DNA from: the human T2T-CHM13v2.0 reference genome, Homo sapiens
Length of the DNA stretch: 64,000 bases
Direction of reading: 5' to 3'
Assembly (NCBI GenBank): GCA_009914755.4
Contig: CP068257.2
Location: forward strand, 8,480,001-8,544,000
Every line of letters starts with the position of its first letter. Within the stretch, counting starts at the first letter, position 1. The notes below the pieces were generated by a model that saw only the letters and a list, made by a program, of their open reading frames with translations, was not told the origin of the DNA and did no database searches. A program made the position numbers and the translations under genes. This document shows positions 59,201 through 62,771 of this stretch, one piece after another.

Positions 59201-61543
59201 TTGTGATGTGTGCATTCATCTCACAAAATTCCAACTTTCTTTTGATTCAGCAGTTTTCAAACACTGTTCTTGTAGAATCTGTAAGTCAGTATTTGCAGGG
59301 TTTTGAGGCTTACCACTGAAAAGCAAATAGCTTCACATAAAAAATACACAGAACCATTCTGAAAAACTTCTTTGTGATGTGTGCATTCATCTCACGGGTT
59401 TGAACCTATCTTACGATTGAGCAGTTTTGAAACATTGTCTTTCTAGAATCTGCAAGTGGATATTTGGAGCGCTTTGAGGCTTACTGTGGAAAAGGAAATA
59501 TCTTCACATAAATACTACACAGAAGCATTCTGAGAAACGTATTATTGATGTGTGTATTCAACTCACAGTGTTGAACCTCTCTTTTCATCGAGCAGTTTTG
59601 AATCTGTCTTTTTGTAGAATCTGCAAGTGGACATTTGGAGCCCTTTCTGACATATGGAGGAAAAGGAAATATCTTTCAATAAAAACTACACAGAAGCATT
59701 CTCAGAAACTTGTTTGATGTGTACATTCATCTCAGAGAGTTGAAACTTTCTTTTGTTTGAGCAGTTTTTAAACACTCTTTTTTTAGAAATTGCAAGTGGA
59801 TATTTGGAGTGCTTTGAGGCCTATTATGGTAAAGGAAATATCTTCACATAAAAACTACACAGAAGCATTCTGAGAAACTTCTTTGTGATGTGTGCATTCA
59901 TCTCTCAGAGTTGAAACTGACTTTTGATTGAGCAATTTTAAAATACTCTTTTTGTGGAATCTGCAAGTGGATATTTGGAGCATTTTGGGGCCTATTGTGG
60001 AAAAGGAAATATCTTCACATAAAAAGTACACAGAGGAAATCTGATAATCTTCTTTGTGATGTGAGCATTCCACTCACAGTGTTGAAAATTTCTTTTCATT
60101 GATCAGTTTTGAAACACTCTTTTTGTATAATCTGCAATTGGATATTTGGAGCGCTTTGAGGCCTATGGTGGAAAAGGAGATATTTTCACATAAAAACTAC
60201 ACAGTTGCATTCTGAGAAACTTCTTTGCTTTGTGTGCTTTCATTTCACAGAGTTGAAACTTTCTTTTGATTTAGCAGTTTGGAAAAACTCCTTTTTTAGA
60301 ATCTGCAAGTGGATATTTGGAGGGCTTTCAGGCCTAGTTTTGAAAAGGAAATATCTTCACATAAAACCTACGAAGAAGGATTCTGAGAAACTTTTTAGTG
60401 ACATATGCATTCAAATCACAGAGTTGAACATATCCTTTGATTGAGCAGTTTTGAAACTCTCTTTTTGTAGAATCTGGAAGTGGGTATTTGGAGCCGTTTG
60501 TGGCCTGCTGTTGAAAAGGGAATATCTTCAGATAGAAACTACACAGAAGCATTCTGAGAAACTTCTTTGTGACGTGTGCATTCATCTCACAGAGTTGAAC
60601 ATTTCCTTTGAGCAGTTTGGAAACACTCTTTTTGTAGAATATGCAATTGGATATTTGGAGCCATTTGTGGCATATGGTGGAAAAGGAAATGTCTTCACGT
60701 AAAAACTACACAGAAGCATTCTGAGAAAGTACTTTTTGATGTGTGCATTCATCTCACTGAGTTGAAACTTTCTTTTGATTGAGCAGTTTGGAAACATCTT
60801 TTTGTAGAATCTGCAAGTGGATATTTGGAGCGCTTGGAAGCCTATGGTGGAAAAGGAAATACCTTCACATAAAAAAAGAAAAACACAGCCGTCTCAGAAA
60901 CTTCTTTGTGATGTATGCATTCAACACACAGATTACAACCAATCTTTTGATTGAGCAGTTTTGAATCTCTCTTTATGTAGAATCTCCAAGTGGATATTTG
61001 GAGTGCTTTGAGGCCTGCAGTGGAAAAGGAAATAGCTTCACATTAAAAGTACACAGAGCATTCTCAGAAACTCCTTTGTGTGTGCGTTCATCTCACAGAG
61101 TTGAATGTTTCTTTTTATTGAACAGTTTGGAGACACTCTTTTTGAAGAATCTTCAAGTGGATATTTGGAGCACTTTGGAGCCTATGGTGGAAAAGGGAAT
61201 ATCTTCACATAAAAACTTGTACACAGAAGCATTCTGAGAAACATCTTTGCGATGTGTGCATTCATCTCATAGAGTTGAACTTTTCTTTTGACTGAGCAGT
61301 TTTGAAAAACTCTTTTTCTAGAATCTGTGGATTCTAGTGGATATTTGGAACACTATCAAGGCTATTGTGTAAAAGGAAATATCTTCACATAAAAACTAAA
61401 CAGAAGCATTATGAGAAACTTTTTCAAGATGTGTACATTCAACTCACAGAGTTGAAGCTATCTTTTTATTGAGCAGTTTTGAAACTCTCTTTTTCTACAA
61501 TCTGTAAGTGGATATTTGGAGCCCTCTAAGGCCTCTAGGTCTC
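56281..61543 (+). repeat. Alpha satellite, + orientation. D-type to ~58400, then C-type (ctacacag, gtggatatttgg).
   Basis: 171-bp monomers. A small 8-bp hairpin ctagaatctgtggattctag lies at ~61316-61340. Confidence 0.95.
61396..61540. repeat. Left copy of ~145-bp direct duplication flanking the L1 fragment (candidate very long TSD)
   Basis: ctaaacagaagcattatgagaaactttttcaagatgtgtacattcaactcacagagttgaagctatctttttattgagcagttttgaaactctctttttctacaatctgtaagtggatatttggagccctctaaggcct. Shares rare derived variants with 62625-62771 (attatgag, ctttttca, gtacattc, ctttttattga, ttctacaatctg, gccctctaagg). Identity is ~95%. Confidence 0.8.
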
Positions 61544-62624
61544 TAGGCATGGGCAATGACTTCATGTCGAAAACACCAAAAGCAATGGCAACAAAATCCA
61601 AAATTGACAAATGGGAACTAATTAAACTAAAGAGCTTCTGCAAAGCAAAAGAAACTACCATCAGAGTGAACAGGCAACCCACAAAATGGGAGAAAATTTT
61701 CGCAACCTACTCATCTGACAAAGGGCTAATATCCAGAATCTACAATGAACTCAAACAAATTTACAAGGAAAAGACAAACAACCCCATCAAAAAGTGAGTG
61801 AAAGACATGAACAGACACTTCTCAAAAGAAGACATTTATGCAGCAAAAAACACATAAAGAAATGCTCACCATCACTGGCCATCAGAGAAATGCAAATCAA
61901 AACAATGAGATACCATCTCACACCAGTTAGAATGGCAATAATTAAAAAGTCAGGAAACAACAGGTGCTGGAGAGGATGTGGAGAAATGGGAACACTTTTA
62001 GGCTGTTGGTGGGACTGTAAACTAGTTTAACTCTTGTGGAAGTCAGTGTGGTGATTCTTCAGGGATCTAGAACTAGAAATACCATTTGACCCAGCCATCC
62101 CATTACTGGGTATATACCCAAAGGTCTATAAATCATGCTGCTATAAAGACACATGCACACGTATGTTTATTGTGGCACTATTTACAATAACAAAGACTTG
62201 GAACCAACCAAAATGTCCAACAATGATAGACTGGATTAAGAAAATGTGGCACATATACACCATGGAATACTATGCAGCCATAAAAAATAATGAGTTTATG
62301 TCCTTTGTAGAGACATGGATGAAATTGGAAATCATCATTCTCAGTAAACTATCGCAAGAACAAAAAACCAAACACCGCATATTCTCACTCATTGGTGGGA
62401 ATTGAACAATGAGAACACATGGACACAGGAAGGGGAACATCACACTCTGGGGACTGTTGTGGGATGGGGGGAGGGGGGAGGGATAGCATTGGGAGATATA
62501 CCTAATGCTAGATGACGAGTTAGTGGGTGCAGCGCACCAGCATGTCACATATATGCATATGCAACTAACCTGCACATTGTGCACATGTACCCTAAAACTT
62601 AAAGTATAATAATAGAAAAAAAAA
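61544..62624 (+). mobile_element. 5'-truncated L1PA-type 3' end (~1.08 kb), + strand
   Basis: taggcatgggcaatgacttcatgtcgaaaacaccaaaagcaatggcaacaaaatccaaaattgacaaatgggaactaattaaactaaagagcttctgcaaagcaaaagaaactaccatcagagtgaacaggcaacccacaaaatgggagaaaattttcgcaacc ... ORF2 C-terminus ... gcacattgtgcacatgtaccctaaaacttaaagtataataatagaaaaaaaaa. Confidence 0.92.
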
Positions 62625-62771
62625 CTACACAGAAGAATTATGAGAAACTTTTTCATGATGTGTACATTCAACTCACAGCGTTGAACCTATCTTTTTATTG
62701 AACAGTTTTGAAACTCTCTTTTTCTACAATCTGGAAGTGGATATTTGGAGCCCTCTAAGGCCTACGTTGGA
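62625..62771. repeat. Right copy of ~145-bp direct duplication flanking the L1 fragment
   Basis: ctacacagaagaattatgagaaactttttcatgatgtgtacattcaactcacagcgttgaacctatctttttattgaacagttttgaaactctctttttctacaatctggaagtggatatttggagccctctaaggcct, followed by normal continuation acgttggaaaaggaaatatc. Confidence 0.8.

What the first reader, a model, noticed from the sequence alone, without database searches (positions are those of the whole stretch)
61396..62771. L1 3' fragment flanked by an unusually long (~145-150 bp) direct duplication of a single alpha monomer
Removing the L1 fragment (61544-62624) leaves two tandem, ~95% identical copies of most of one monomer. They share several rare substitutions not seen in neighbouring monomers (attatgag, actttttca, gtacattc, ctttttattga, ttctacaatctg, gagccctctaagg). 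The duplication starts at the canonical L1 endonuclease site in the monomer (cacataaaaa|ctacacag) right after the L1 poly(A). It ends where the L1 5' truncation point begins. This fits a target-site duplication roughly 10x longer than usual, which is rare but documented for L1. The alternative is a monomer duplication that happened to be hit exactly at its boundary. The ~5% divergence between copies is in the range expected for neutral decay since an L1PA-age insertion.
Basis: partly seen in the sequence, partly recalled or inferred. Interest (0 to 1): 0.6.

Follow-up and report, generated by a model that had tools for sequence, protein, structure and literature searches.

The report
L1 fragment with 144-bp target duplication
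An old, dead 1.1-kb tail piece of an L1 jumping gene sits in pericentromeric alpha satellite DNA and is flanked by a 144-bp duplication of its target, about ten times the usual length; this is a rare but already documented outcome of L1 insertion.

Summary
Window 61391-61534 and 62620-62763 align without gaps over 144 bp at 137/144 identity (95.1%). They directly flank a 5'-truncated, plus-strand L1 3' fragment (61544-62619; ORF2p residues ~988-1274 plus 3'UTR, short A tail).

The two copies share 15 non-consensus bases found in no other monomer of the window. No other adjacent monomer pair (n=266) exceeds 90.4%.

The left copy stops at monomer position 144. Removing the L1 and one copy restores the 171-bp phase exactly. 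Removing the L1 alone leaves a 27-bp gap.

The repeat starts at an L1 endonuclease-type site (bottom strand TTTTT/AT). There is no short nested TSD. The 4.9% copy divergence fits twice the L1's private divergence (3.4%).

Best reading (about 0.85): target-primed reverse transcription with the second-strand break 144 bp downstream of the first nick. That gives a long target-site duplication with 9 nt of filler at the 5' junction.

The main rival is a pre-existing single-monomer duplication hit by an L1 that deleted 27 bp. It needs several coincidences but is not excluded, because no empty site could be found.

TSDs over 100 bp are documented in cell-culture assays, so this is an ordinary member of a rare known class. 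Interest is low to moderate.

The parts
61211..61390 (+). Upstream alpha monomer (flank X), ending in ...cttcacat; the likely first-strand nick lies just after it, on the bottom strand 5'-TTTTT/ATGTG-3'
   Evidence: Monomer phase from blastn hits (q1-171). It is 79% identical to either duplicated copy.
61391..61534 (+). Left (5') copy of the duplicated target: monomer positions 1-144 only, lacking the last 27 bp of a monomer
   Evidence: Gap-free 144-bp alignment, 137/144 identical to 62620-62763. Partial hit q1-144. The identical sequence is present in an independent contig, L001.
61535..61543 (+). 9-nt filler (ctaggtctc) at the L1 5' junction; it partly repeats the ctagg that spans the junction with the L1 5' end (61543-61547)
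   Evidence: Not alpha and not aligned to the other L1 copies. No template of 9 nt or more elsewhere in the window. Extra nucleotides occur at 14.6% of 5'-truncated L1 junctions (PMC2912911).
61544..62405 (+). 5'-truncated L1, ORF2 C-terminal part (about ORF2p residues 988-1274), inactivated by stop codons and a frameshift
   Evidence: phmmer against PDB human L1 ORF2p chains, E=1e-176, query 1-286 = residues 988-1274. Translation shows stops and a frame change. 92-94% identical to two other L1 copies in the window.
62406..62615 (+). L1 3'UTR, including the G-rich tract; reads gacGAGtta at the position that, from my own knowledge, reads ACA/ACG in human-specific L1
   Evidence: Alignment with L1-A and L1-B 3' ends; sequence read.
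62616..62619 (+). Remnant of the poly(A) tail. The A-run is 62616-62624, and its last 5 As are shared with the target.
   Evidence: Sequence; alignment boundary.
62620..62763 (+). Right (3') copy of the duplicated target, monomer positions 1-144
   Evidence: It continues in phase into 62764-62790.
62764..62790 (+). Non-duplicated last 27 bp of the target monomer. It contains most of a degenerate CENP-B-box position (the box spans 62762-62778, CTACGTTGGAAAAGGAA). The inferred second-strand break is at 62763|62764.
   Evidence: Sequence. CENP-B box consensus CTTCGTTGGAAACGGGA from PMC8122249; 14/17 positions match but the core CG and GGG bases are lost.

Best explanation
A 5'-truncated L1 of L1PA age (not human-specific) inserted by target-primed reverse transcription into a single monomer of a divergent, monomeric alpha-satellite array.

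The L1 endonuclease nicked the bottom strand at 5'-TTTTT/AT-3', which on the top strand is cacat|aaaaactacacag. The T-run primed cDNA synthesis on the poly(A) tail. The top strand was then broken 144 bp downstream (ggcct|acgttgg) rather than the usual ~13-15 bp. The truncated cDNA end was joined there with 9 nt of filler.

Fill-in of the two 144-nt single-stranded stretches produced a 144-bp (139-144) target-site duplication. Since then both copies and the L1 have decayed neutrally.

Shown: the anatomy, the identity, the phase restoration, the endonuclease-type site, the absence of a short TSD, and the age concordance. Inferred: the order of events and the position of the second-strand break, because no empty site was seen.
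For: - 144-bp gap-free repeat at 95.1% abutting both ends of the L1.
- 15 shared derived bases, and diagnostic k-mers unique to the two copies.
- It is the highest of 267 adjacent pairs; the other adjacent pairs reach at most 90.4%.
- The left copy ends at monomer position 144 and the right copy starts at position 1. L1 plus one copy removed gives exact 171-bp phase; L1 alone removed leaves a 27-bp gap.
- The same monomer site (cacataa|aaa) was used by a second L1 in the window (55391-56277), so it is a recurrent endonuclease target.
- The three other retroelement insertions in the window show phase overlaps of 14, about 9-14 and about 0-5 bp, so this one is the outlier.
- L1 private divergence is 29/861 = 3.4%, predicting 9.7 mismatches in 144 bp; 7 were observed, P(<=7)=0.25.
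- The mismatches are split about 3-4 left to 3 right.
- The left copy, filler and L1 5' junction are identical in an independent metagenome-derived contig, L001.
- TSDs over 100 bp, and their association with 5'-truncated insertions, are documented in HeLa assays (PMC5223499; PMC2912911).
Against: - No pre-insertion (empty) allele, orthologue or paralogue with a single copy was found, so the duplication is not directly tied to the insertion event.
- In a 171-bp tandem array a +144-bp duplication and a -27-bp deletion are the same in register. The argument therefore rests on sequence identity and on rates, not on structure alone.
- The frequency of TSDs over 100 bp among germline-fixed L1s is not known. 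Surveys cap TSD detection at 25-30 bp.
- The poly(A) remnant is very short (4-9 As).
- The L1 age estimate rests on only two comparison copies.
Confidence: 0.85

Rival explanations
1. Pre-existing tandem duplication of one monomer (M1-M2, about 95% or more identical). It was later hit by an L1 that nicked at the start of M2, joined its 5' end at position 144 of M1, and deleted the last 27 bp of M1. This would be an L1 insertion-mediated small deletion with no TSD.
For: It is geometrically indistinguishable in a 171-bp array (144 + 27 = 171). Small target-site deletions of 5-25 bp accompany about 7% of germline L1 insertions (PMC12016303). Local duplications do exist in this array, at lags of 3, 4, 6, 14-15 and 23-25 monomers.
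Against: None of the 266 other adjacent pairs is near-identical (max 90.4%), which puts the frequency below 1.1% at 95% confidence. No lag-1 duplications are seen. The L1 would have to land so that its deletion covers the duplication junction. The duplication would also have to be no older than the L1, since copy divergence (4.9%) is at or below twice the L1 private divergence (6.7%). This amounts to coincidences in space, in time and in a second rare event.
Confidence: 0.1
2. Post-insertion homogenisation. The L1 inserted between two ordinary adjacent monomers (about 80% identical) with a 27-bp deletion, and gene conversion later made the flanks alike.
For: Gene conversion and unequal exchange act in satellite arrays (general knowledge). 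There is no direct evidence here.
Against: The conversion tract would have to coincide exactly with both L1 ends over 144 bp. The 7 differences are spread evenly along the repeat rather than clustered. Neighbouring monomers show no comparable similarity (79-87%).
Confidence: 0.03
3. Assembly artefact: the duplicated monomer was created by mis-assembly around the L1.
For: Satellite regions are error-prone to assemble.
Against: The copies differ at 7 positions. The 5' junction, with the left copy and the filler, is reproduced exactly in an independent contig, L001 / OUNP010001420.1. The 3' junction was not independently confirmed.
Confidence: 0.02

Closest known systems
L1 insertions with large (>100 bp) target-site duplications recovered in cultured-cell retrotransposition assays (Gilbert et al. 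2002/2005 and Symer et al. 2002, as summarised in PMC5223499 and PMC2912911)
   Same: 5'-truncated L1, endonuclease-type 3' junction, poly(A), direct repeat of the target over 100 bp, extra nucleotides at the 5' junction.
   Different: This is an old event in a natural genome, present in two independent assemblies, and sits in a satellite array rather than being a de novo event in HeLa or NER-deficient cells. The duplication has decayed to 95%. The tandem-repeat context makes a +144 duplication equivalent in register to a -27 deletion.
Canonical L1/Alu TPRT insertions with 5-25 bp TSDs (median 13 bp, IQR 10-15; PMC12016303)
   Same: The same mechanism and hallmarks. Window controls are the Alu at 24566-24875 with a 14-bp TSD, and the L1s at 39447-42996 and 55391-56277.
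   Different: The TSD is about 10 times longer; the second-strand break is 144 bp from the first nick.
L1 insertion-mediated deletion (small target-site deletions)
   Same: It would give the same monomer register (27 bp missing) and no short TSD.
   Different: It does not by itself explain 95% identity and 15 shared derived bases between the flanks. A pre-existing duplication, otherwise unseen in the array, must be added.
Site-preferential L1 integration in alphoid monomers (Laurent et al. 1997, recalled from my own knowledge and not checked here)
   Same: Use of the A-rich cacataaaaa site of the monomer; seen twice in this window.
   Different: That work concerns site preference, not TSD length.

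Membership tests
L1 (LINE-1) TPRT insertion | Sequence homology to L1 ending at the element's 3' end | tested here: met
   ORF2p residues 988-1274, E=1e-176. The 3'UTR aligns to two other L1 3' ends at 92-94%.
L1 (LINE-1) TPRT insertion | 3' poly(A) tail | tested here: met
   A-run 62616-62624. Only 4 As are not attributable to the target, so it is short, as expected for an old copy.
L1 (LINE-1) TPRT insertion | Endonuclease consensus at the 3' junction (bottom strand 5'-TTTT/A-3') | tested here: met
   Top strand cacat|aaaaactac corresponds to bottom strand TTTTT/AT. The same site is used by L1-B at 56277.
L1 (LINE-1) TPRT insertion | Direct repeats of the target immediately flanking the element | tested here: met
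   61391-61534 vs 62620-62763, 137/144 identical, gap-free.
L1 (LINE-1) TPRT insertion | Empty site with one copy of the repeated sequence | not testable with these tools
   No primate genome collection is available. Exact-ORF look-ups and pattern scans found only a filled-site contig.
Long-TSD (>100 bp) class of L1 insertions | Duplicated target over 100 bp bounded by the first- and second-strand breaks | tested here: met
   139-144 bp. The phase test shows that one copy is supernumerary.
Long-TSD (>100 bp) class of L1 insertions | The duplication arose at the same time as the insertion | tested here: inconclusive
   Copy divergence 4.9% (CI 2.0-9.8) against 2 x 3.4% for the L1. This is consistent, but the confidence intervals are wide.
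L1 insertion-mediated deletion | Target bases missing relative to the empty site, and no TSD | tested here: inconclusive
   27 bp are missing from the left copy if both copies pre-existed. No empty site is available. It requires an adjacent near-identical pair, which is not seen in 266 other adjacent pairs.
Monomeric (non-HOR) alpha satellite | About 171-bp head-to-tail monomers, 70-90% identical, without higher-order periodicity | tested here: met
   274 monomer hits, mean pairwise identity 82%, adjacent 82.7%. Only scattered multi-monomer duplications are present.

The most novel reading that the evidence does not exclude
The TSD length may not be accidental. At 144 bp it is the size of nucleosome-core DNA. 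The 27 bp of the monomer that were not duplicated (most of the CENP-B-box position plus atatcttcacat) would then be the linker. Both strand breaks would have occurred in the accessible linker on either side of one nucleosome positioned on the alpha monomer. If this is general, L1 insertions in alpha satellite should show a secondary peak of TSDs near 140-150 bp, with both breaks in the same 27-bp segment. That would make satellite arrays a natural read-out of how chromatin guides second-strand cleavage, a step of TPRT that is still poorly understood.
Probability: 0.08. Interest if true: 0.6.

Novelty: new member of a known kind. Interest (0 to 1): 0.25.

Why it matters
It is a clean natural example of a very long L1 target-site duplication, seen in two independent assemblies. 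This class is known mainly from cultured-cell assays. Genome surveys miss it systematically because they cap TSD searches at 25-30 bp.

It shows that retrotransposition can add a near-complete satellite monomer to an array. It also shows that in tandem repeats a long TSD can be told from a small deletion only by sequence identity.

Beyond that it is an ordinary dead L1 fragment with no indication of function.

Tried and rejected
- Short nested TSD: none. The 5' flank (...ctaaggcctctaggtctc) shares nothing with the 3' flank (aaaaactacacag).
- 3' transduction as the source of the right copy: rejected. No second poly(A) follows it, and it runs in phase into the array.
- Higher-order-repeat or segmental-duplication origin of the similarity: rejected. 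No third close copy exists (next best 86.9%), and the other close pairs above it in the ranking lie 3-25 monomers apart.
- Templated origin of the 9-nt filler: no template of 9 nt or more in the window. Reading it as diverged L1 sequence gives only 4/7 matches with a gap, by my own alignment by eye.
- Search for an empty site or other alleles:
  - Four exact-ORF look-ups, two genome-contig scans, one viral-contig scan and a plasmid megablast all returned nothing.
  - The metagenome scan gave one contig, L001, which is the filled site.
- L1 subfamily assignment: not possible without consensus libraries. I can only say it is not human-specific (GAG at the 3'UTR diagnostic triplet, from my own knowledge) and is about 90% identical in protein (my count from the alignment) to L1HS ORF2p.
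- Literature search for long TSDs in alpha satellite specifically: nothing relevant found.
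Full report
**Context.** The window is a pericentromeric satellite junction.
- Positions 40-11821 are a diverged (CCATT)n pentamer satellite (GC skew -0.77).
- From about 11861 to 64000 there is divergent monomeric alpha satellite: 274 monomer hits, mean pairwise identity 82%.
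- The alpha array changes orientation at 21622/21632 and at about 34560.
- Four retroelements interrupt it: an Alu (24566-24875), a 3.5-kb L1 (39447-42996), an 0.9-kb L1 (55391-56277) and the L1 of this finding.

**The observation.**
- Aligning the two flanks gives a single gap-free block, 61391-61534 vs 62620-62763: 144 bp, 7 mismatches, 95.1%.
- The first five bases are the target's aaaaa, which merges with the L1 A-run on the right. The duplicated length is therefore 139-144 bp.
- The right monomer's next best match in the window is 86.9%.
- The pair ranks 9th of 36,563 monomer pairs. The eight pairs above it all lie 3-25 monomers apart, and most belong to runs of consecutive matching monomers.
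- It is the top of 267 adjacent pairs. The others have mean 82.6%, sd 2.9 and maximum 90.4%, giving z=4.3. An ordinary adjacent pair would reach 137/144 with P=6e-6.
- The copies share 15 non-consensus bases, 12 of which occur in 8% or fewer of 223 other monomers.
The only corrections are the length (144 rather than 145-150), a 9-nt filler at the 5' junction, and a 5-nt shift of the probable nick.

**The insert.**
- Positions 61544-62619 are a plus-strand L1 3' fragment.
- Its conceptual translation matches residues 988-1274 of human L1 ORF2p (E=1e-176), at about 90% identity by my count from that alignment. It has several stop codons and a frameshift.
- It is followed by the 3'UTR and a very short A tail.
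- The 3'UTR reads gacGAGtta where human-specific L1 has ACA/ACG (my own knowledge), so it is an older L1PA-type element.
- Positions 61535-61543 (ctaggtctc) are filler with no template of 9 nt or more in the window. Extra nucleotides are reported at 14.6% of 5'-truncated L1 junctions (PMC2912911).

**Register test.**
- In monomer coordinates the left copy covers positions 1-144 and then stops. The right copy starts at position 1 and runs to 171, and the array then continues in phase.
- Deleting the L1, the filler and one copy joins ...cttcacat (61390) to aaaaactacacag (62620) in perfect 171-bp register.
- Deleting the L1 alone leaves a 27-bp gap.
- The corresponding flank overlaps at the other three insertions are 14 bp (Alu, perfect TSD aaaaagagcatttc), about 9-14 bp (the inverted L1) and about 0-5 bp (the 0.9-kb L1).
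- No short TSD is nested at the ends of the L1 studied here.

**Endonuclease site.** The repeat begins at cacat|aaaaa, which is bottom strand 5'-TTTTT/AT-3', an L1 endonuclease-type site. The 0.9-kb L1 at 55391-56277 used the same monomer position, so the site is a recurrent target.

**Age test.**
- A three-way alignment of this L1 with the two other L1 3' ends in the window gives 29, 30 and 31 private substitutions in 861 shared columns, 3.4% each.
- If the flanking copies arose with the insertion, they should differ by about twice that figure, or 9.7 mismatches in 144 bp.
- Seven are seen: P(<=7)=0.25, with a copy-divergence CI of 2.0-9.8%.
- Polarised against the array consensus, about 3-4 changes lie in the left copy and 3 in the right. 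This is expected for two copies of equal age.
- At the roughly 0.17%/Myr rate that I recall from L1 dating studies, 3.4% corresponds to roughly 20 Myr. That is the age cited for L1PA5, the oldest subfamily of the hominoid L1 series (3.1-20.4 Myr; PMC5237266).
- No subfamily could be assigned without consensus libraries.

**Independent copy.**
- A pattern specific to the duplicated monomer found nothing in 185,579 prokaryote genomes or in viral contigs.
- It found one metagenome contig, OUNP010001420.1 (L001).
- L001 is 98.7% identical to window 59083-61929. It carries the left copy, the filler and the L1 5' junction without any difference.
- The 5' junction is therefore not an assembly artefact of this window.
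- L001 is a filled site, not an empty one.
- Its last ~160 bp, inside the L1, switch to consensus-like bases and probably reflect a collapsed repeat in that assembly.

**Interpretation.**
- The best explanation is target-primed reverse transcription in which the second-strand break fell 144 bp downstream of the first nick. The 5'-truncated cDNA was joined with filler, and gap fill-in duplicated 144 bp of the monomer.
- TSDs over 100 bp have been recovered in HeLa assays, in fewer than 10% of events, and are the rule in NER-deficient cells (PMC5223499).
- Extremely long TSDs were noted specifically among 5'-truncated insertions (PMC2912911).
- Typical germline L1 TSDs have median 13 bp, IQR 10-15 (PMC12016303).

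**Main rival.**
- The rival is a pre-existing single-monomer duplication, later hit by an L1 that deleted 27 bp. In a 171-bp array, +144 and -27 are the same register, so structure alone cannot separate the two.
- Against it: 0 of 266 other adjacent pairs is near-identical (upper bound 1.1%).
- The duplications that do exist are at lags of 3-25 monomers.
- A 27-bp deletion is itself uncommon; deletions of 5-25 bp occur in 7.4% of germline L1s.
- The duplication would have to be no older than the L1.
- I put it at about 0.10, with gene conversion and mis-assembly at a few per cent together.
- Only an empty site can settle it. None was reachable with these tools.

**A speculative reading.**
- 144 bp is nucleosome-core size.
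- The non-duplicated 27 bp contain most of the degenerate CENP-B-box position. The box spans 62762-62778, CTACGTTGGAAAAGGAA, against the consensus CTTCGTTGGAAACGGGA (PMC8122249).
- Both breaks may have fallen in the linker flanking one positioned nucleosome.
- One event cannot test this. A survey of TE flanks in T2T alpha arrays could.

**Verdict.** The phenomenon is a rare but documented outcome of L1 integration. It is of modest interest as a natural, old example that standard TSD pipelines would miss.

Noticed in passing
window 40-11821 (junction with alpha satellite at about 11861): About 11.8 kb of diverged (CCATT)n pentamer satellite (HSat2/3-like; 68% matches to the unit, GC skew -0.77) abuts the alpha array directly.
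   Followed up: partly
window 21622/21632 and about 34560: The alpha array flips orientation twice: plus strand 11861-21622, minus strand 21632-34560, then plus again. Both breakpoints fall inside monomers, so a ~13-kb inverted block lies within the array.
   Followed up: partly
window 24566-24875 (paralogous block 21759-22609 vs 24143-25320): A minus-strand, CpG-rich (young-looking) Alu with a perfect 14-bp TSD (aaaaagagcatttc). It lies in one copy of a 5-monomer block duplicated about 2.4 kb away at 96-99% identity. The other copy (about 22099-22269) is uninterrupted at that position, so the Alu post-dates the duplication.
   Followed up: partly
window 39447-42996: A 3.5-kb L1 with a 5' inversion of the twin-priming type. 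The 3' 782 bp are on the minus strand (39452-40233). The upstream L1 segment is on the plus strand and ends at 42996, with about 5 nt lost at the inversion point. The TSD is decayed, about 9-14 bp, at a cttcttt/g site.
   Followed up: partly
window 55391-56277: A third L1 3' fragment (plus strand) inserted at the same monomer position (cacataa|aaactagacag) as the L1 studied here, but with at most a few A-rich bases of TSD. The A-run of the alpha monomer is a repeated L1 target.
   Followed up: partly
L001 1-2861 (= window 59083-61929): Metagenome contig OUNP010001420.1 is the same locus at 98.7% identity (22 mismatches, 6 gaps). In its last ~160 bp, inside the L1, it switches to consensus-like L1 bases, probably a collapsed-repeat chimera. 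I could not tell whether the remaining ~0.6% difference is allelic, paralogous or from another hominid.
   Followed up: partly
window 49083-49593 vs 53026-53878; 31323-31667 vs 31839-32180; 19713-19876 vs 20390-20558: Further local multi-monomer duplications inside the array, at 92-95% identity and lags of 23-25, 3 and 4 monomers. None is at lag 1 apart from the L1-flanking pair.
   Followed up: no
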